Shown here piece by piece: positions 1,367-11,470 of a stretch of DNA of 13,198 nt. Both the position numbers and the translations under genes were made by a program. The stretch comes from a virus, in UHGV virus genome UHGV-2130109. One strand, written 5' to 3'. The notes beneath the pieces were generated by a model, which did no database searches, was not told the DNA's origin, and saw only the letters and a program-made list of their open reading frames with translations. The number at the start of each line of letters is the position of its first letter. Positions within the stretch are counted from its first letter, which is position 1.

Positions 1367-1682
1367 TCATCCCGCAGACGGTCCCGGCATCTCCCGGGTT
1401 AACCCAATCGGCTTCCCGCTCATCACGGAATCGGCATCAGGCTGCTGCGGTTGGTGTGACTGCACATTGGTGTGACTGCACATCTTCGCAGACGGTCCCG
1501 GTATCTCCGGGTTAACCCAATCGGCTTCCCGCTCATCACGGAATCGGCATCAGGCTGCTGCGGTTGGTGTGACTGCACATTGGTGTGACTGCACATCTTC
1601 GCAGACGGTCCCGCTATCTCCGGGTTAACCCAATCGGCTTCCCGCTCATCACGGAATCGGCATCAGGCTGCTGCGGTTGGTG
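1367..1682. repeat. Three tandem direct repeats (~112-bp unit; third copy truncated), each containing the ~84-bp O-gene-derived core; the first two also carry a duplicated 16-bp motif TTGGTGTGACTGCACA (iteron-like)
   Basis: Units begin near 1374, 1487 and 1600 with cgcagacggtcccgg(c/t)atctcc(c)gggttaacccaatcggcttcccgctcatcacggaatcggcatcaggctgctgcggttggtg. The 16-mer pairs lie at 1451-1482 and 1564-1595. Array lies between cII and the O-like start. Confidence 0.9.
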
Positions 1683-1729
1683 TTTTTGCTGGCGAAATAC
1701 TTCCAGATGTGGCAGAATTATTTCCGAGT

Positions 1730-1806
1730 ATTGCTCCATGCCCTCTGAATATCAGATATTCATCAGGATTTGCTCAGAACGTCCGGCCCCAACCGGACGT
1801 TTTTTA
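1730..1806 (+). ncRNA. oop: OOP-like antisense RNA overlapping the 3' end of cII, ending in an intrinsic terminator
   Basis: 3' portion CAGGATTTGCTCAGAACGTCCGGCCCCAACCGGACGTTTTTTATT closely resembles lambda OOP 3' end (CTGGATTTGTTCAGAACGCTCGGTTGCCGCCGGGCGTTTTTTATT, from memory). Stem 1777-1785/1792-1800 plus T-run. Antisense to the cII 3' end as in lambda. The 5' end is approximate. Confidence 0.55.
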
Positions 1807-2133: not shown

Positions 2134-2179
2134 TCGCTTTGTCAGCGACGTAGGACGAATGCCCATTGTGAAAAGAGCG
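2134..2179 (-). promoter_or_regulatory. nutR: boxA-like (CGCTCTTTT, complement of 2171-2179) and boxB hairpin (TCGCTGACAAAGCGA, complement of 2134-2148)
   Basis: Lies immediately downstream of the cro stop on the minus strand. boxA is close to the CGCTCTT(T)A consensus. boxB has a 5-bp stem and the same GACAA pentaloop as the nutL boxB. Confidence 0.5.
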
Positions 2180-2186
2180 GTGTTAC

Positions 2187-2387
2187 TTATGCAGTTGTTT
2201 TTTTGTTACTTGGGAAGGGCTTTATTTCTTCCGCATAAACGCTTCCATCAGCGTTTATAGTTAAAAAAATCTTTCGGCCTGCATGAATGGCCTTGTTAAT
2301 CGCGCTTTGATATACGCCGAGATCTTTAGCCGTCTTGGTTTGCCCAAAGCGTATTGCATAATCTTTCAGGGTTATGCGTTGTTCCAT
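2187..2387 (-). CDS. cro: Cro repressor
   Basis: 66 aa, [66 protein letters not shown]; about 2 substitutions relative to lambda Cro as I recall it. SD TAAGGAGG upstream. Confidence 0.95.
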
Positions 2388-2413
2388 ACAACCTCCTTAG
2401 TACAGGCAATCAT

Positions 2414-2477
2414 TATCACCGCTAGAGGTATAATAGTCAACACGCACGGTGTTAGATATTTATCCCTTGCGGTGATA
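2414..2477. promoter_or_regulatory. Right operator oR1-oR2-oR3 with divergent pR (toward cro) and pRM (toward cI)
   Basis: 17-bp sites: oR1 2414-2430 (TACCTCTAGCGGTGATA on the cro strand, one G->A relative to lambda), oR2 2438-2454 (TAACACCGTGCGTGTTG, identical to lambda), oR3 2461-2477 (TATCACCGCAAGGGATA, identical to lambda). The cI ATG at 2488 sits at the 5' end of the pRM transcript, consistent with the leaderless lambda cI mRNA. Confidence 0.9.
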
Positions 2478-2484
2478 GATTTAA

Positions 2485-3201
<717 letters not shown>

Positions 3202-3271
3202 TGAAGGGCTAAATGTCTCCTAATAAAAACAGCAATCATTTGAAATTATTAATAATTATAGAGGCTTAGTC

Positions 3272-4270
3272 TTGGAAATCAGCACGGCGGTTATTCATTC
3301 CGAAGAAGATGCTTTGCGTTTTGTTGAGATGTACATCGCTGGGCAAGATCTTCCTGATGGAATATCATTTGAAGGGTGGCCTAACTTAACCTTCCGTCTT
3401 ACTGGTGACAAATTTCATGGCAGTTTGACTCCTTCTGTCATGAAGGGTTTTGTTGAAATGCAGGCCCAAATAAACCGAGCTTATGCATTGTTAAAGTACG
3501 GAGTTCCTGACCCAAGAAAGCTTTCAAAAGAAGAGAAGGAAGCTATCGAAATTCAGGTGAATGTTGAGAATGGCTCGTCCTTGATAGAAGTTAATATGGA
3601 TGGGTTCATGGGTGAGGTTATACAAACTGCGGTGAGTAAAGTGGGCCCTCAAGAGATCGTTATTACAGTTTTAGGGGTCGCTCTTATATGGGGCGGCGTC
3701 GTCCTATTCAAAAAATATCTAGAAGACCGCAAAGAGATTCGCATGGCAGAAGTAAAAAGCGAGTCTGAGCGTGAACACCTTGCGACCATGCGCTTCATGT
3801 CTGAGCAGGAAACAAAACGAAGTGAATTATTGACTCAGATTATTAGCGAAAAACCCAAGCTAGACAACATGGAAAGACTTGCTCATGACGCAAAAACCGA
3901 CATAGTTAAATCATTTGTCAAGGCTGATACAGCTCAGATTGATGGCGTTGTATTGGATGCAGATCTATCCAAAACCCTCACTACAAATGCAAGGCGGAAA
4001 TCAATGGAGATCCGCCTTGATGGAAATTATCGCATTGAAAAGGTTGACTCCACTGATCCAGAGAGCTTCAAAGTGCAAGTGAGAAATGTTGACTCCGATC
4101 TAAGAATATCGTGCATAGTACAAGATGTTTTTCTCGACGCATCCGAGCATAAAAAAGCTCTTCAGCAAGCTGAGTGGGATAGAAAACCAGTTCATTTGTC
4201 AATCAACGCAAAAGAACTAGATGGTGAAATAAAGTCCGCGATAATACTTTATGTCAAAGAGATAACATAA
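3272..4270 (+). CDS. Hypothetical single-pass membrane protein occupying the rexA/rexB position downstream of cI; candidate lysogen-expressed exclusion/abortive-infection factor
   Basis: 332-codon ORF with TTG start 7 nt after a GAGG SD. Central hydrophobic helix (IVITVLGVALIWGGVVLF, about residues 129-147), soluble N-terminal domain, charged K/E-rich C-terminal half. AT-rich spacer and low GC relative to cI. I recognise no similarity to RexA or RexB. Confidence 0.6.
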   Translation: MEISTAVIHSEEDALRFVEMYIAGQDLPDGISFEGWPNLTFRLTGDKFHGSLTPSVMKGFVEMQAQINRAYALLKYGVPDPRKLSKEEKEAIEIQVNVENGSSLIEVNMDGFMGEVIQTAVSKVGPQEIVITVLGVALIWGGVVLFKKYLEDRKEIRMAEVKSESEREHLATMRFMSEQETKRSELLTQIISEKPKLDNMERLAHDAKTDIVKSFVKADTAQIDGVVLDADLSKTLTTNARRKSMEIRLDGNYRIEKVDSTDPESFKVQVRNVDSDLRISCIVQDVFLDASEHKKALQQAEWDRKPVHLSINAKELDGEIKSAIILYVKEIT

Positions 4271-4277
4271 TCCTCAT

Positions 4278-4303
4278 CCCGGCCTCAGCGCCGGGTTTTC
4301 TTT
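4278..4303 (+). terminator. Intrinsic terminator ending the cI operon (tIMM-like)
   Basis: cccggc-ctcagc-gccggg followed by ttttcttt, directly after the 3272-4270 stop. Confidence 0.6.
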
Positions 4304-4455: not shown

Positions 4456-4518
4456 AACCATCTGCGGTGATGAGCTATCTCTAGCGGTGTTGACTTAAAT
4501 ACCACTAGCGGTGATACT
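4456..4518. promoter_or_regulatory. Left operator oL3-oL2-oL1 with pL (-35 TTGACT 4490-4495, -10 GATACT 4513-4518), transcribing rightward into N
   Basis: oL3 4456-4472 AACCATCTGCGGTGATG, oL2 4476-4492 TATCTCTAGCGGTGTTG, oL1 4500-4516 TACCACTAGCGGTGATA. Near-identical to lambda oL/pL except G->A in oL1 and oL2 and one change at the oL3 edge. Confidence 0.85.
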
Positions 4519-4586: not shown

Positions 4587-4601
4587 GCGCTGACAAAGCG
4601 C
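4587..4601 (+). promoter_or_regulatory. nutL boxB hairpin, P22-type (GCGCTGACAAAGCGC)
   Basis: 5-bp GC-rich stem with GACAA pentaloop about 60 nt downstream of the pL start. Matches the P22 boxB sequence as I recall it. No clear boxA consensus found upstream. Confidence 0.55.
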
Positions 4602-4766
4602 AATAACCAAAGTGAACTTTGGGGTGTGGTGAAGGGTTCATGGACGGGAATATGTCGCACGTAAAGCGGCGGGGTCTGCGGGACTATTGCCGAATTGAAG
4701 TAGGCCGAAACAGGTCGAAATGGGTCTCCCACCTACCACACCACCAAAGTTCATCAGGAGGTCTAT

Positions 4767-5150
4767 ATGACACGCAGAACTCAGTTCAAAGGCAATTCAC
4801 GCTCTCATCGTCGTGAGCGTTTAAAGGCAAAGGCATTAGCTAACGGCGTGCTGGCCCGCGAAGAAGCAATAAGTTCAGAAGTATTACACCGCCCTACTCT
4901 AAGCAGAGCGCAGATTCAGGCTAAAGGTACTCACGAAACGCCTGAGCGCATAGAAGACGCTAAGCCAATTAAGTTCATGGCACAGGACGTGATCTGGCAA
5001 CAGAAAGAATACAGACGCAATCTGGAGCGAGCGGCCATTGTGTACGCGAATGAGTTTGGACATAAGCAACCAGAAACTGGTGTATGTCTTCCAAACGTAG
5101 CCATTTACGCGGCAGGCTATCGCAAATCAGGAACAATAACAGCGAGGTGA
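4767..5150 (+). CDS. N: N-like transcription antitermination protein (P22 gene 24 type)
   Basis: 127 aa, first gene of the pL operon, AGGAGG SD. N-terminal arginine-rich motif (GNSRSHRRERLKAKALA) resembles the P22 N ARM (GNAKTRRHERRRKLAIER). C-terminal ..AIYAAGYRKSGTITAR resembles P22 gp24. Confidence 0.7.
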   Translation: MTRRTQFKGNSRSHRRERLKAKALANGVLAREEAISSEVLHRPTLSRAQIQAKGTHETPERIEDAKPIKFMAQDVIWQQKEYRRNLERAAIVYANEFGHKQPETGVCLPNVAIYAAGYRKSGTITAR

Positions 5151-5153
5151 TAA

Positions 5154-5867
5154 ATGACAACGCCTTCAGTTTTGCCGCAAAAATTATGGCGTCCACTTGC
5201 AGAGATTAAAAACTTCGTTGAAAAAATGCCTGATGGCGTTCGACTTACGGAAGTTACTAAAAAAGTTAAGACATTTGCCGAACTGTCAGGCAAGGAGAGA
5301 AACCAGCTCATCGATTTTATCGATAAACGGGAAAGCATCATTGTATTTAAGGTCAGAAAAGAAGGTTCTGGTAACGGAGTAACCTTTTTCCGCCACAAAA
5401 AATATGGATATCCCAAACGGGAAGGAAACGTGACCATCATTAAGGACCTTCAGTCAAAATTATGCACCAGATGCGGGCAGACAAAATCAGTCGATGATTT
5501 TTATTCAGATGCCAGCAAACGTGACGGGAGAGCCATTTATTGTAAGAAGTGCGAATCTGCAATGAAACGCTTGCGCAGAGAATGTAATAAATTAATTCTG
5601 CAACAACAGGAATCTGAAATGAATAACCTCAAAGTAGTTTCACCTTCACCAGAAACACTCAGAAAACAGGCAGAAGAATTGCTGAAAGCCGCCGAAATTG
5701 CGGAGAAAAAACGTCAGGAAGATGATGTATTCAACAAAAAACTCGCGCCCTTAAAACTTGAAATTCTTCAGGCCGCCGGAAAAATGCAGCTTAAACTGGA
5801 CGAGTTCATCGACTGCATGGATGAAATGAATAAAGCGGTTCAGAAACTTAAAGAACTGACCTCCTGA
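5154..5867 (+). CDS. Hypothetical protein with CxxC-x19-CxxC zinc-ribbon motif and coiled-coil C-terminus
   Basis: 237-codon ORF starting 4 nt after the N stop with GAGGTGA SD. Low GC. Motif CTRCGQTKSVDDFYSDASKRDGRAIYCKKC. No family recognised. Confidence 0.6.
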   Translation: MTTPSVLPQKLWRPLAEIKNFVEKMPDGVRLTEVTKKVKTFAELSGKERNQLIDFIDKRESIIVFKVRKEGSGNGVTFFRHKKYGYPKREGNVTIIKDLQSKLCTRCGQTKSVDDFYSDASKRDGRAIYCKKCESAMKRLRRECNKLILQQQESEMNNLKVVSPSPETLRKQAEELLKAAEIAEKKRQEDDVFNKKLAPLKLEILQAAGKMQLKLDEFIDCMDEMNKAVQKLKELTS

Positions 5868-7188: not shown

Positions 7189-7581
7189 ATGAAAGAACTC
7201 GCACAGAACGAAGTGTTCTCAGAATCCTGCCCTGACGCAATAAATGAGCTTAAAGAAATCGCAGCACGCATAAATGAAATATGCAAAAAACACAAGATAG
7301 ATTATGTCTATTCATTTTCAGAGCTAACAGAAATCGCAATTAACGAATATAAGGACAGTCGTTTTGTTTCCTTCGGTTTGTATTGCGAAACTTCCAGCCC
7401 ATATATTCATGCAGCATCTGAAATTGTCGACAGTACAATTAAACCACAGGCAATACTGGAACTGGCAATGGCTCTTCAGCTTATCAGAGAGAATGGTGAA
7501 TGCACCTGTGACTGCCCTGAATGCCAGCACGAACAGACTCAGGCCAGCACCAAAACCGCAAACAAGAAAGCATTTCACTGA
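7189..7581 (+). CDS. Hypothetical Cys-rich protein (130 aa)
   Basis: ORF with C-terminal CTCDCPECQ cluster. No family recognised. Confidence 0.45.
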   Translation: MKELAQNEVFSESCPDAINELKEIAARINEICKKHKIDYVYSFSELTEIAINEYKDSRFVSFGLYCETSSPYIHAASEIVDSTIKPQAILELAMALQLIRENGECTCDCPECQHEQTQASTKTANKKAFH

Positions 7582-7651
7582 AATAAAAAATCCGGCAGCA
7601 CAGGCTACCAAAAAGGGCGCTTATTTTTATCCAGTCAGAGGTTTAAACACA

Positions 7652-9712
7652 ATGAGCACTGATAAACAAGTTTACCCACTGTATTACGAAGCAAAAAATG
7701 ACAAGGTAAGAAAACGCCTCGGCATTAAAGGCGGTTTTTACTGGGCTGAGGCGAAAAAATTATCCATTGCAATCTCTCGTGGTGCTGTTGCGATTGACGA
7801 TGCGGGCTACGATGAAGATGACTTTAAAAAACCTGTTCGCGTTCATTTGCCCGTCGTAAATGACCTTCCACCGGAAGGAGTGTTTGATACCGAATTCTGT
7901 AATCGCTATGAAAAAGGCGGTAACGATGGCATCACCATGATGGCTATACCCTCCGATGACAACATCAACGGTGAAGATGCCACAACGGCTGACGGTGGCA
8001 ACGATGACCCAGACGGAGCTGTTCCGGGTAATGCGGAGAAAATCGAATCCACAGACAGCGACGATGACTGTATTGACTGTGAAATTCCCGTCGCCACTCT
8101 CAGTCTTACCCATCGTTTCCTTCACCTCTTCTTCTTTAGCAAGGATAAAGATGGAAAATACCGGCATCACGCCACACCAGAACAACGTAATAATGTGATC
8201 CGTCTGGAGATGGACACAGAAGATAGTTACCTTCAGAGCCTGCTTACTGCTGTGCGTTCACATCCAGAGCTGGATAAGCTGACGAATTATCACCTTAGCC
8301 GCCTGGCTGAATCTGTAGGGAAAGCATTCCCCCACTCTGCAAATCATCGCATCAGCCCGGCTGAATTCGACAAGTTCATTTCCACCTGGATGAAAACTGA
8401 CTACCTTGATCAGGGCCTGCTGACAAAAGAATGGCAGAACGGAAATTATGTTTCAGGCATTACCCGTACGCCTTCCGGTGCTAACGCTGGCGGCGGAAAT
8501 ATTACCGATCGTGGTGAAGGATTCAAACATGATAAGACATCACTCGCACGAGATGTAGCCACCGGCGTTCTGGCCCGTTCAATGGATGTGGATATTTATA
8601 ACCTGCACCCAGCACACGCAAAACGCGTTGAAGAAATCGTGTCAGAGAATAAGCCGCCCTTTTCTGTTTTTCGCGACAAATTTATCGCCATGCCCGGTGG
8701 GCTGGATTATTCCCGCGCCATTGTGGTGGCTTCCGTGAAAGAAGCACCAATCGGCATTGAGGCCATCCCGGCACGCGTGACTGAATATCTCAACAAAGTG
8801 TTGACCGAAACCGATCACGCTAACCCGGATCCGGAAATCGTGGAAATTGCCTGCGGTCGCTCATCAGCACCGATGCCGCAGCGCGGAACAGCAGAAGGAA
8901 AACATGGCGATGAAGAAAAGCAACAAACATCGGACACAATGGCTAATGAACAGGCAGCGCCTGAATCAGTGGAAGAAATTCCAGTTAAACATAATGAGGA
9001 CACGCAATCACTGGAAAATGTCTCATCTGTAGAAACGAAATACCAGGAACTGAGGGAGGAACTCAATAAAGCCAGGGAAAACATCCCCCCAAAAAATCCA
9101 GTCGATGCCGACAAATTACTGGCGGCTTCTCGCGGAGAATTCGTTGAAGGTATCAGCGACCCAACCGACCCGAAGTGGGTGAAGGGGATCCAGACTCGCG
9201 ACACTGAAGACCAGAATCAATCCAAAGTGGAACAAAATGAGCCAGAAGCGGAACAAAACAGCCCGGATACGCAACAAAACGGACCAGCAGAGCAACAACC
9301 AGAGCCAGTAGCACAACCGGAGCTGGAAAAATCCTGCCGCGTCTGTGCTCAGACTGGTGGGGGCAACTGCCCTGACTGCGGTCCGGTAATAGGAGATGAA
9401 ACTTACGCTGAAATTTTTGGAGAAAACGGCACATCTGCTGAAGAGAACTCAGCACAAGCGGATGTCCTGGAAAGTTCCGCTGATACAACTCATGAACTCG
9501 AGGCAGTTGCCCGGAATGCTCAGGGCAACAATGCGCCCGACGATAAGGCTGATTCAGAACCAGAAATTCTCGACTGGAAAAGACAGCTCGTGATTGCAGC
9601 CGTCTATGGTTTGTGCGCCAACCCCGCATGTATAGCCACAGCGCCAGCAATCCCTGATATCGCCATCATGATTGCCAACAGGCTTGAAAATTTCGGAGGT
9701 GATAAATCATGA
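7652..9712 (+). CDS. Large acidic protein (686 aa) resembling the N-terminal non-nuclease region of RecE (exonuclease VIII) but lacking a recognisable nuclease domain; C-terminal CxxC-x7-CxxC zinc ribbon
   Basis: Start chosen at ATG 7652 (MSTDKQ..., AGAGG upstream) rather than the track's 7364, which overlaps the preceding gene. Blocks such as [50 protein letters not shown] and [28 protein letters not shown] match my recollection of the E. coli RecE N-terminal region. Stop overlaps the gam start (ATGA at 9709-9712). Confidence 0.6.
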
Positions 9713-10010: not shown

Positions 10011-10796
10011 ATGAGTACAGCACTCGCAACGCTGGCAGGGAAGCTGGCTGAACGTGTCGGCATGGATTCTGTCGACCCACAGGAACTGATTACCACTCTT
10101 CGCCAGACAGCATTTAAAGGTGATGCCAGCGATGCCCAGTTCATCGCACTACTGATCGTCGCTAACCAGTACGGCCTTAATCCATGGACGAAAGAGATTT
10201 ACGCCTTTCCTGATAAACAGAACGGTATCGTTCCGGTGGTGGGTGTTGATGGCTGGTCCCGCATCATCAATGAAAACCAGCAGTTTGATGGCATGGACTT
10301 TGAGCAGGACGATGAATCATGTACATGCCGGATTTACCGCAAAGACCGAAATCATCCGATCTGCGTTACCGAGTGGATGGATGAATGTCGCCGCGCACCA
10401 TTCAAAACCCGCGAAGGCAGAGAAATCACCGGACCGTGGCAGTCGCATCCCAAACGGATGTTACGGCACAAAGCCATGATTCAGTGTGCTCGCCTGGCCT
10501 TCGGATTTGCTGGCATCTATGACAAGGATGAAGCCGAGCGTATTGTCGAAAATACTGCATATACTACAGAACGTCAGCCGGAACGCGACATCACCCCGGT
10601 TAACGAAGAAACCATGTCGGAAATTAACGCCCTTCTTACTTCCATGGAAAAAACGTGGGATGACGACCTGTTGCCGCTCTGTTCCCAGATTTTTCGCCGC
10701 AACATTTACACATCTTCAGAACTAACACAGGCTGAAGCTGTGAAGGTTCTTGGATTCCTGAAACAGAAAGTCACAGAGCAGAAGGTAGCAGCATGA
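10011..10796 (+). CDS. bet: Bet (Red-beta) single-strand annealing protein
   Basis: 261 aa, [98 protein letters not shown]...; essentially lambda Bet. Confidence 0.95.
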
Positions 10797-11470
10797 CACC
10801 GGACATTATCCTGCAACGTACAGGGATCGACGTGAGAGCTGTCGAACAGGGGGATGATGCGTGGCACAAATTACGGCTCGGCGTCATCACCGCTTCAGAA
10901 GTTCACAACGTGATAGCAAAACCCCGCTCAGGAAAGAAATGGCCTGACATGAAAATGTCCTACTTCCACACCCTGCTGGCTGAGGTTTGCACCGGTGTGG
11001 CTCCGGAAGTTAACGCTAAAGCGCTGGCCTGGGGAAAACAGTACGAGAACGACGCCAGAGCCCTCTTTGAGTTCACTTCCGGCGTGAATGTTACTGAATC
11101 CCCGATCATCTATCGCGACGAAAGTATGCGCACCGCCTGCTCTCCCGATGGTTTATGCAGTGACGGCAACGGCCTTGAACTGAAATGCCCGTTTACCTCC
11201 CGGGATTTCATGAAATTCCGGCTCGGTGGTTTCGAGGCCATAAAGTCGGCTTACATGGCCCAGGTGCAGTACAGCATGTGGGTGACACGAAAAGATGCCT
11301 GGTACTTTGCCAACTATGACCCGCGTATGAAGCGTGAAGGACTGCATTATGTCGTGGTCGAACGGGATGAAAAATACATGGCTGGTTTTGACGAAATGGT
11401 GCCAGAGTTCATCGAAAAAATGGACGAGGCACTGGCTGAAATTGGTTTTGTATTTGGGGAGCAATGGTGA
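10793..11470 (+). CDS. exo: Lambda-type 5'-3' exonuclease (Red-alpha)
   Basis: 225 aa, [65 protein letters not shown]...; essentially lambda Exo. ATGA overlap with bet. Confidence 0.95.

What the first reader, a model, noticed from the sequence alone, without database searches (positions are those of the whole stretch)
3202..4303. Single unknown membrane-protein gene replaces rexA/rexB immediately downstream of a lambda-identical cI
In lambda the interval between cI and the terminator before oL holds rexA-rexB, the classic lysogen-expressed abortive-infection pair. Here cI and the downstream terminator/oL look lambda-like, but the interval holds one 332-codon gene. It has a TTG start with GAGG SD, a 70-bp AT-rich spacer, lower GC than cI, one predicted TM helix (IVITVLGVALIWGGVVLF) between a soluble N-terminal domain and a charged C-terminal half, and no resemblance I can recognise to RexA, RexB or any named defence family. 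Placement in the pRM operon predicts constitutive expression in lysogens, as expected for a prophage-encoded exclusion system. This is my top candidate for an undescribed system.
Basis: partly seen in the sequence, partly recalled or inferred. Interest (0 to 1): 0.8.

Follow-up and report, generated by a model that had tools for sequence, protein, structure and literature searches.

The report
Uncharacterised gene in lambda's rex slot
A lambda-immunity prophage has swapped its classic rexA-rexB anti-phage genes for one conserved gene of unknown function, from a large unnamed protein family that sits in typical prophage "accessory gene" slots and next to known defence genes, which makes it a good but unproven candidate for a new phage-exclusion protein.

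Summary
A real 332-codon gene (3272-4270) fills exactly the interval that rexA-rexB fill in lambda. Homology to lambda stops 1 nt after the cI stop codon and resumes 1 nt after the rexB stop, at the t_imm terminator.

cI is near-identical to lambda's, not identical: 2 amino-acid differences, 96% DNA identity.

The protein matches no Pfam, NCBIfam or PADLOC model and no solved structure by sequence. It matches only PHROG 6191, "unknown function". It belongs to a large family of constant length: 1,555 cluster representatives, almost all 320-350 aa. The gene is under strong purifying selection (dN/dS 0.02).

The AlphaFold model (pLDDT 86) has three parts:
- an N-terminal domain with no structural match;
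- a conserved glycine-rich hydrophobic helix followed by charged helices;
- a C-terminal OB-fold.

Whether the helix spans the membrane is unresolved.

Relatives occupy two prophage accessory slots: downstream of repressors, and antisense between Q and the lysis genes. Others lie beside a type VI retron, Type I and Type ISP restriction systems, and PD-T7-4.

A lysogen-expressed anti-phage role is the best reading, but it rests on association only. That the cI-N slot is variable was already known.

The parts
2488..3201 (+). cI repressor, lambda immunity type. It is the upstream gene of the same operon.
   Evidence: Pfam HTH_3 plus Peptidase_S24. 2 aa differences from lambda cI; DNA 96.3% identical over 2173-3202.
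3203..4277 (+). Foreign cassette that replaces the lambda rexA-rexB segment (lambda 37225-35825).
   Evidence: blastn homology to lambda ends at 3202 and resumes at 4278. The same cassette at 100% identity follows other repressor types in IMG/VR loci, and a relic of the cI 3' end is carried along.
3202..3271 (+). 70-nt AT-rich spacer with the Shine-Dalgarno GAGG at 3261-3264. No promoter-like or terminator-like site was detected in it.
   Evidence: Sequence; GC 28.6%; consensus scan.
3272..4270 (+). 332-codon gene of unknown function (PHROG 6191 family; WP_000406300.1).
   Evidence: dN/dS 0.019.
3272..3646 (+). N-terminal acidic alpha/beta domain (residues 1-125). It holds the best-conserved motif, GWPxLTxRLxGxKFxxS(L/I)TPSVMKGF, and the invariant residues Q64, L84 and G101.
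3653..3709 (+). Conserved glycine-rich hydrophobic helix (residues 128-146), kinked at G141-G142. Candidate membrane anchor or insertion helix.
   Evidence: Kyte-Doolittle and flank-charge statistics; Hessa-scale caveat; DSSP helix break.
3710..3928 (+). Highly charged helical region (residues 147-219).
   Evidence: AF2 helices 143-160, 164-171, 178-193 and 195-217.
3929..4267 (+). C-terminal beta domain (residues 220-332) with an OB-fold core, carrying the conserved AEWxRKPVxLSINAK motif.
4278..4303 (+). Rho-independent terminator (lambda t_imm), the end of the cI operon.
   Evidence: Hairpin CCCGGCCTCAGCGCCGGG followed by TTTTCTTT. Homologous to lambda from 4278 onward. Equivalent hairpins follow the gene in other cI-slot loci.
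4456..4518 (+). oL3 (4456-4472), oL2 (4476-4492) and oL1 (4500-4516), with pL (-35 TTGACT at 4490, -10 GATACT ending at 4518).
   Evidence: The pL hexamers are from the promoter scan, and the region is 89% identical to lambda. The operator positions I read from the sequence against my recollection of the lambda operators.

Best explanation
The gene is a horizontally mobile prophage accessory gene (a "moron"). It is co-transcribed with cI from pRM in the lysogen and ends at t_imm. It encodes a roughly 37-kDa three-part protein: an N-terminal domain with no structural match, a conserved glycine-rich hydrophobic helix followed by charged helices, and a C-terminal OB-fold.

The most likely role is protection of the lysogen against other phages.

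The mechanism I commit to is a single-chain functional analogue of RexA plus RexB:
1. The soluble domains (the OB-fold and/or the N-terminal domain) sense an infection cue at or near the inner membrane.
2. The protein then oligomerises through its small-residue (G135...G141-G142) hydrophobic helix.
3. The oligomer permeabilises or depolarises the membrane, aborting the infection.

Shown here: gene reality and strong constraint; the exact cassette swap; absence of a detected terminator between cI and the gene; domain layout; family size; recurrent prophage accessory slots; neighbouring defence genes.

Inferred, not shown: transcription in the lysogen; membrane association; any anti-phage effect; the abortive mechanism.

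Rough odds: anti-phage role about 0.5. Within that, abortive membrane action about 0.55 and block of genome entry about 0.45. The confidence value given (0.28) is for the specific abortive mechanism.
For: 1. Position. The gene occupies the exact rexAB interval of a lambda-immunity region, between the cI stop and t_imm, with no terminator-like site in between. The slot is a recognised hotspot that holds the abortive-infection systems RexAB and BstA (PMC8585504).
2. The same slot in unrelated phages. In Moraxella phage Mcat17 a homologue directly follows an S24 cI-like repressor that is divergent from a cro-like gene. In IMG/VR loci the 98-100% identical gene follows lambda-type cI (L027), 233-aa (L028/L034) and 240-aa (L032) repressors with other N-terminal parts, an unrelated 235-aa repressor (L029/L030/L035), and a 155-aa HTH protein (L037/L038).
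3. A second slot. In 46 of 84 analysed loci the gene is convergent with the antiterminator Q gene, with a gap of about 15 nt. That places it antisense to late transcription between Q and the lysis genes, which fits lysogen expression from its own promoter.
4. Known defence genes nearby in four independent non-lambdoid contexts:
   - a complete type VI retron (HTH_VI 2e-32, RT_VI 2e-88) immediately upstream in Pasteurella phage Pmp14;
   - a Type ISP/IIG R-M enzyme plus GmrSD in an Oceanospirillaceae island;
   - PD-T7-4 (1e-76) adjacent in L095;
   - Type I HsdS/HsdM three genes away in Psychrobacter.
5. Patchy, mobile distribution. The gene is in 9 of 5,426 complete E. coli genomes at >=99.8% identity.
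6. It stands alone: no neighbouring gene is conserved across contexts.
7. A conserved hydrophobic helix with small-residue spacing and a K/R-rich C-flank is present in 254 relatives.
8. Strong purifying selection.
Against: - No experiment, expression data or homology links the family to defence. There is no PADLOC hit, although PADLOC includes candidate (PDC) families.
- The pooled PADLOC scan of 145 neighbour proteins showed only phage methyltransferase-type families and the candidate family PDC-S22 (3 proteins) among the families it listed (first 25 of 218). Any other hits were single proteins not shown. Known defence genes are therefore not a frequent neighbour.
- No background rate was computed for finding defence genes near a random prophage accessory gene, so the four neighbourhood cases are anecdotal.
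- Membrane insertion is uncertain. The Hessa-type sum is +0.5 kcal/mol for this protein and the family median is +2.7.
- The positive-inside rule predicts N-out/C-in. That would require export of a 125-aa N-terminal domain without a signal peptide.
- The OB domain is net acidic (my count from the sequence), and its best structural neighbours are periplasmic or secreted OB folds rather than DNA binders.
- In Mu-like phages the gene is co-oriented with the lysis genes and lies just upstream of them. That could instead mean a role in the lytic cycle.
Confidence: 0.28

Rival explanations
1. Superinfection exclusion at genome entry. The protein is constitutively anchored in the inner membrane and blocks or captures incoming phage DNA or ejection proteins. 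The cell survives, as with P22 SieA or SNIPE, but here without a nuclease.
For: The contextual evidence is the same as for the best explanation. By the positive-inside rule the predicted topology is N-out/C-in (C-flank K+R 4.1 against 1.9 on the N side; 83% of 254 relatives). That is the topology shown experimentally for SNIPE (PMC13190303). An OB-fold on the cytoplasmic face could bind entering DNA.
Against: No nuclease or other catalytic motif was found. All three parts are conserved from Moraxella to Burkholderiales. That is unusual for entry blockers, which tend to track particular phages or host receptors. The OB domain is net acidic. Membrane anchoring is unproven.
Confidence: 0.22
2. 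Not a defence gene. It would be an accessory gene serving the host envelope or physiology (lysogenic conversion), or the prophage's own life cycle, for example lysis timing or control of induction.
For: Most relatives lie beside the lysis cassette. In 46 of 84 loci the gene sits next to Q and the holin genes, and in Mu-like phages it is co-oriented directly upstream of holin and endolysin. The closest OB-fold neighbours are periplasmic or secreted binders such as SilF and the AB5 B subunits. In Caballeronia the gene is chromosomal, next to sugar-nucleotide/aminotransferase-type genes, with no phage genes called within 6 kb. Defence genes are not frequent neighbours.
Against: In lambdoid phages the gene is antisense to late transcription, so it is not part of the lysis operon. 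The taxonomic range is wide, including marine and soil bacteria, which argues against an animal-virulence role. It occupies the same slot as RexAB and BstA, and known defence genes are adjacent in four contexts.
Confidence: 0.25
3. A highly diverged rexA or rexB, or a fusion of the two.
For: It sits in the same position as rexAB. One blastp alignment to RexB exists: 20% identity over 74 aa, E 0.01 in a two-sequence database, spanning the hydrophobic stretch.
Against: PADLOC's RexA and RexB models hit lambda's proteins at 9e-110 and 9e-61 but not this protein at E<=1. hhalign of the family profile against RexA and RexB gives probabilities of 0.1% and 0.2%. The architecture also differs: one hydrophobic segment here against four TM helices in RexB (the latter from my own knowledge).
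Confidence: 0.01
4. A chance ORF or a decaying pseudogene filling the gap left when rexAB was lost.
For: It has a TTG start and no annotation beyond "hypothetical protein".
Against: dN/dS is 0.019. There are 1,555 homologous cluster representatives of constant length. The AF2 model is confident, with pLDDT 86 and pTM 0.81. The PHROG match is full-length at E 1e-137.
Confidence: 0.01

Closest known systems
Lambda RexA/RexB abortive-infection pair
   Same: The genomic slot is identical: between the cI stop and t_imm, in the pRM operon. It is presumably expressed in lysogens. One hydrophobic helix could act on the membrane, as RexB is proposed to do.
   Different: One gene instead of two. No sequence or profile similarity. 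One marginal hydrophobic segment against four TM helices. It adds an OB-fold and an N-terminal domain with no structural match.
BstA (Salmonella phage BTP1; Owen et al. 2021, PMC8585504)
   Same: A single prophage gene immediately downstream of the repressor, found behind many different repressors and also in some non-prophage contexts. BstA is a proven abortive-infection protein.
   Different: I recall BstA as having a KilA-N-type DNA-binding domain and no hydrophobic helix; that was not checked here. No Pfam domain of any kind matches this protein. A self-immunity (aba-like) element was not looked for.
SNIPE / PD-lambda-1 (PMC13190303)
   Same: A single elongated protein with one hydrophobic helix and the same predicted N-out/C-in orientation, with charged helical and possibly DNA-binding parts on the C-terminal side.
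   Different: No DUF4041 and no GIY-YIG nuclease. The hydrophobic helix lies at residue ~128, behind a 125-aa domain, rather than within the first 70 residues.
Other cargo of the cI-N hotspot in lambda-immunity phages (hicAB in mEp234/HK106, gp48/gp49 in HK97, NYN protein in ev099)
   Same: The flanks (cI and oL) and the mosaic junctions are the same.
   Different: The proteins are unrelated. This family is absent from all 50,697 deposited phage genomes except Moraxella Mcat17 and Pasteurella Pmp14.
PHROG 6191
   Same: Full-length member (E 1e-137, residues 4-331 on profile positions 6-334 of 338).
   Different: The PHROG family carries no functional annotation, so membership explains nothing about function.

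Membership tests
RexA/RexB (lambda Rex system) | Sequence or profile match to RexA or RexB | tested here: not met
   No PADLOC hit for the ORF at E<=1. As a positive control, lambda RexA scores 9e-110 and RexB 9e-61. hhalign probabilities are 0.1% and 0.2%.
RexA/RexB (lambda Rex system) | Two-gene architecture: a cytoplasmic sensor plus a polytopic membrane protein | tested here: not met
   One ORF fills the 1,075-nt cassette. There is a single hydrophobic segment; a second-best window reaches KD>=1.6 in only 2% of relatives.
RexA/RexB (lambda Rex system) | Location between cI and t_imm in the repressor operon | tested here: met
   Homology breakpoints at 3202 and 4278. No terminator-like site between cI and the ORF.
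BstA | N-terminal KilA-N-type DNA-binding domain (as I recall the family's definition) | tested here: not met
   No Pfam domain matches this protein, and none recurs among 51 relatives.
BstA | Cognate anti-BstA (aba) DNA element at the 5' end of the gene | not tested
   No comparable element was searched for. The last ~40 nt of the spacer are conserved between diverged copies, but their role is unknown.
SNIPE / PD-lambda-1 | DUF4041 plus a C-terminal GIY-YIG nuclease | tested here: not met
   No Pfam or PADLOC hit. The defining domains are taken from PMC13190303.
PHROG 6191 | Full-length match to the family HMM | tested here: met
   E 1.1e-137, 459.7 bits, residues 4-331 on profile positions 6-334 of 338.
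OB-fold proteins (C-terminal domain only) | Five-stranded beta-barrel superposable on known OB folds | tested here: met
OB-fold proteins (C-terminal domain only) | Binding of a nucleic acid, sugar or metal ligand | not testable with these tools
Bitopic inner-membrane protein | One segment hydrophobic enough to insert by itself, with a consistent flank-charge bias | tested here: inconclusive
   The KD 19-residue window has a median of 1.77, with 72% of relatives >=1.6, and the C-flank is K/R-rich. The Hessa-type sum is +0.5 for this protein and +2.7 as the family median. The AF2 N-terminal domain loses confidence when modelled alone.
Prophage moron / lysogenic-conversion cassette | Insertion between conserved phage genes with sharp homology breaks, and the same cassette in different phage backgrounds | tested here: met
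Prophage moron / lysogenic-conversion cassette | Expression from the repressed prophage | not testable with these tools
   This is inferred only from the operon position and from the antisense orientation in the Q-lysis slot.

The most novel reading that the evidence does not exclude
The family is a widespread, previously unrecognised single-protein anti-phage system of Proteobacterial prophages. Its two soluble domains (one with no structural match, one an OB-fold) would sense infection and drive a latent, glycine-rich hydrophobic helix to oligomerise in the inner membrane. It would be a one-chain equivalent of RexAB with no homology to any known defence protein.
Probability: 0.3. Interest if true: 0.75.

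Novelty: new variant of a known kind. Interest (0 to 1): 0.5.

Why it matters
If the gene protects lysogens, it adds a large unnamed family (about 1,500 clusters at 50% identity) to the catalogue of prophage-encoded immunity. It has no Pfam family and is missing from PADLOC v2.

It would also be a natural counterpart to RexAB, whose mechanism is still poorly understood after more than 60 years (PMC8585504). It sits in the same operon, the same slot and the same immunity type, with a different protein. The two cargoes could be compared in an otherwise near-isogenic lambda background.

It would further support using the cI-downstream and Q-downstream slots of lambdoid prophages as discovery hotspots, as was done for P2 and P4.

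If it proves not to be a defence gene, it is still a strongly constrained, lysogen-positioned gene whose function in prophage biology is unknown.

Tried and rejected
- Diverged rexA/rexB: rejected.
- Known defence families: no PADLOC v2 hit for the protein.
- Pfam and NCBIfam: none for the protein. Scanning all 51 aligned relatives at E<=1 gave only scattered, inconsistent weak hits; the most frequent family, RNase_HII, matched 4 of 51.
- PDB by sequence profile: nothing better than E 0.69.
- Foldseek against BFVD: two full-length alignments to uncharacterised virome proteins at E ~5e-5 but TM-scores of 0.21-0.29. One target is annotated DUF6575, a domain that Vassallo et al. 2022 list among E. 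coli defence proteins. I could not find which PD system carries it; the supplement text does not say. No PADLOC PD model matches, so this stays an unverified lead.
- AFDB Foldseek was unavailable.
- Possible paralogue upstream in the Oceanospirillaceae island (331 aa): unrelated.
- Retron ncRNA in Pmp14: no Rfam hit. The RT and HTH genes are nevertheless clear type VI retron components.
- Pooled PADLOC scan of 145 neighbour proteins: the listed families (first 25 of 218) were phage methyltransferase-type models plus PDC-S22, so it was uninformative for enrichment.
- Fc02 exclusion genes (PMC9936078): unrelated small proteins.
- Own promoter in the 70-nt spacer: none found by consensus scan.
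- Literature search for WP_000406300: no paper.
Full report
**What is in the window**

The window is the early region of a lambdoid prophage. On the minus strand it carries an O-like replication gene, cII (1752-2048) and cro (2187-2387). On the plus strand it carries cI (2488-3201), the target ORF (3272-4270), an N-type antiterminator (4767-5150), accessory genes, bet, exo and an integrase.

cI has HTH_3 and Peptidase_S24 domains. It differs from lambda cI at two residues, T3A and K71N. DNA identity over 2173-3202 is 96.3%.

**Check of the observation**

blastn against lambda shows that homology ends at window 3202, which is 1 nt past the cI stop codon. It resumes at 4278, which is 1 nt past the position of the rexB stop. 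From there it continues through the t_imm hairpin (4278-4295 plus T-tract). The three oL operators (4456-4516) I read from the sequence, and the pL hexamers (4490-4518) come from the scan.

The 1,075 nt between the breakpoints (3203-4277) are foreign. They contain a 70-nt spacer at 28.6% GC, a GAGG Shine-Dalgarno sequence 7 nt before a TTG start, and one 332-codon ORF. The ORF's GC content (42.0%) is only a little below that of cI (45.4%).

The consensus scan finds no terminator-like or promoter-like site between cI and the ORF. The simplest reading is co-transcription with cI. That is an inference, not a measurement.

**It is a real, constrained gene**

- NCBI's pipeline annotates the same ORF, WP_000406300.1 "hypothetical protein", in nine complete E. 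coli genomes out of 5,426, at >=99.8% identity.
- A word-indexed search found 122 homologues of about 330 aa in Enterobacterales, Pasteurellaceae, Pseudomonas, Oceanospirillaceae and Caballeronia.
- An exhaustive HMM search of 1.84 billion cluster representatives found 1,555 at E<=1e-3 and 603 at E<=1e-30. Nearly all of those listed are 320-350 aa.
- Against a copy that is 98% identical in protein but has dS 0.34, dN/dS is 0.019.

**What the protein looks like**

By sequence:
- It matches no Pfam-A, NCBIfam or PADLOC model and no solved structure.
- The only family hit is PHROG 6191, "unknown function", full length at E 1e-137.
- Scanning all 51 aligned relatives against Pfam at E<=1 gives no recurring family.

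By structure, an AlphaFold2 model built on the 51-sequence alignment is confident, with pLDDT 86.3 and pTM 0.81. It has three parts:
- An alpha/beta domain (residues 1-108) holding the family's strongest motif, GWPxLTxRLxGxKFxxS(L/I)TPSVMKGF...Q64.
- A helical stretch (110-217). Its second helix is the hydrophobic segment. That helix breaks at G141-G142 and is followed by very charged helices.
- A beta-rich C-terminal domain (220-330).

**Is it a membrane protein?**

Evidence in favour, from 254 full-length relatives:
- There is exactly one hydrophobic segment, at a conserved position around residue 129.
- Its median uncharged length is 18 residues.
- The Kyte-Doolittle 19-residue mean has a median of 1.77, and 72% of relatives are at or above 1.6.
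- The C-flank is K/R-rich: 4.1 against 1.9 on the N side, with the C side higher in 83% of relatives.

By the positive-inside rule this predicts N-out/C-in.

Evidence against a simple anchor:
- A position-independent sum on the Hessa scale is +0.5 kcal/mol for this protein and +2.7 as the family median. That is marginal for a lone transmembrane helix.
- N-out would require export of a 125-residue domain with no signal peptide.
- The high pTM of the full model, and the drop in N-domain confidence when it is modelled alone, hint that the N- and C-terminal domains touch each other.

I therefore treat "membrane-associated" as likely but unproven. A latent or oligomerisation-dependent insertion helix remains a live alternative. 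The G135...G141-G142 spacing puts small residues on one helix face.

**Where relatives sit**

I analysed 84 loci from IMG/VR and GTDB with a simple ORF caller, plus annotated contexts.

1. Downstream of repressors.
   - In Moraxella phage Mcat17 the homologue directly follows an S24 cI-like repressor that is divergent from a cro-like gene.
   - In E. coli-type loci the 98-100% identical gene follows lambda cI (L027), 233-aa (L028/L034) and 240-aa (L032) repressors with other N-terminal parts, an unrelated 235-aa repressor (L029/L030/L035), and a 155-aa HTH protein (L037/L038).
   - In the loci with non-lambda repressors, a ~30-nt relic of the lambda cI 3' end is retained in front of the cassette. 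The cassette moves by recombination at the end of cI.
2. Between Q and the lysis genes. In 46 of 84 loci the gene is convergent with the antiterminator Q gene, with a gap of about 15 nt, and so is antisense to late transcription. This includes Salmonella and Pectobacterium prophages.
3. In Mu-like prophages of Pseudomonas and in a metagenome contig, it lies just upstream of holin and endolysin on the same strand.
4. Outside recognisable prophages, or at phage genome ends, it lies next to known defence genes:
   - a complete type VI retron in Pasteurella phage Pmp14 (HTH_VI 2e-32, RT_VI 2e-88);
   - a Type ISP/IIG restriction enzyme and GmrSD in an Oceanospirillaceae island;
   - PD-T7-4 (1e-76) in L095;
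   - Type I HsdS/HsdM in Psychrobacter.

No partner gene is conserved across these contexts, so the gene acts alone. Among 50,697 deposited phage genomes only Mcat17 and Pmp14 carry a homologue. No cultured lambdoid phage has it.

**Context from the literature**

The cI-N interval of lambdoid phages is a recognised mosaic hotspot, described by Degnan et al. 2007 as cited in PMC8585504. It hosts RexAB in lambda and the abortive-infection protein BstA in BTP1.

In the phage database, other lambda-immunity phages carry hicAB, gp48/gp49, an NYN-domain protein or hypothetical genes in this slot. Replacement of rex is therefore expected biology. What is new is this particular occupant.

SNIPE (PD-lambda-1) shows that a single protein with one N-proximal TM helix, in N-out/C-in topology, can defend by acting on DNA at the injection site (PMC13190303). 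The present protein shares neither of its domains.

**Interpretation**

The best-supported reading is a lysogen-expressed, horizontally mobile accessory gene whose product protects the lysogen from other phages. I put this at about 0.5.

Within that reading I favour an abortive, membrane-directed mechanism, a one-chain analogue of RexA plus RexB. My reasons:
- All three parts are conserved across very distant hosts. That suits a universal effector (the membrane) better than a blocker tuned to particular receptors or ejection proteins.
- The hydrophobic helix is glycine-rich and only marginally hydrophobic, as expected for an oligomerising or inducibly inserting helix.

An entry block is nearly as likely. 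A non-defence role, in envelope physiology or lysis/induction control, remains a serious rival at about 0.25. That rival rests on the frequent neighbourhood with lysis genes, the periplasmic-type OB neighbours, and the lack of a statistical enrichment test.

A diverged rexA/rexB and a spurious ORF are both excluded.

**Novelty and score**

The kind of thing, an accessory gene in the immunity-region hotspot, is known. The protein family is uncharacterised and has no detectable relationship to any named defence protein. I rate it "new variant of a known kind".

Interest is 0.5. It is a well-defined and easily testable candidate from a large family, sitting in the best-studied prophage operon there is. 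But the case for defence is by association only, and many such candidates exist.

Noticed in passing
window 1394-1732 and 622-734: Three tandem copies of a 113-nt unit lie between cII and the O-like replication ORF; copies 1 and 2 are 99% identical. A fourth, 67%-identical copy lies inside that ORF. No long ORF bridges cII and the O-like ORF, and the replication gene of the related E. coli ML775 prophage is annotated as frameshifted. This may be an expansion of the origin/iteron region or a disrupted O gene.
   Followed up: partly
window 5154-5867 (+): The first gene after N (237 aa, PHROG 2539, unknown function) has a CxxC...CxxC zinc-finger stretch. It shows weak PHROG similarity to endonuclease VII and to Lar-like restriction-alleviation proteins (E 5e-10 and 2e-9). 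It could be an anti-restriction or nuclease accessory gene.
   Followed up: no
window 7364-9712 (+): A 782-aa ORF matches only positions 1-578 of the 877-position exodeoxyribonuclease VIII (RecE) model and scores below its cut-off. It lies upstream of lambda-type bet (10011-10796) and exo (10793-11470). This looks like a RecE-like N-terminal region without the nuclease end, alongside a complete Red system.
   Followed up: no
L029/L030/L035 (about 90 nt upstream of the family gene) and L037/L038: Where the family gene follows a non-lambda repressor, a relic of about 30 nt of the lambda cI 3' end (...CAGTGGCCTGAAGAGACGTTTGGGTGA) remains between the foreign repressor's stop codon and the cassette. 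This marks the recombination joint by which the cassette spreads among immunity types.
   Followed up: partly
L003 (Pasteurella phage Pmp14) 3668-6032: A complete type VI retron gene pair (HTH_VI and RT_VI; PADLOC 2e-32 and 2e-88) lies immediately upstream of the family homologue, at the end of the phage genome. No Rfam retron RNA was detected. Whether the homologue is an added retron effector or only a neighbour is open.
   Followed up: partly
Foldseek BFVD hits to the model of window 3272-4270: Two uncharacterised virome proteins align over the full length at E ~5e-5 but with TM-scores of 0.21-0.29. One is annotated DUF6575. Vassallo et al. 2022 name DUF6575 as a domain of one of their validated E. 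coli defence proteins. The link could not be verified.
   Followed up: partly
L007-L009 (Oceanospirillaceae island) 4591-5586: A 331-340-aa gene with no Pfam or PADLOC match sits directly upstream of the family homologue and of a Type ISP restriction enzyme. It is unrelated to the family (hhalign probability 0.1%). It may be another uncharacterised island gene.
   Followed up: partly
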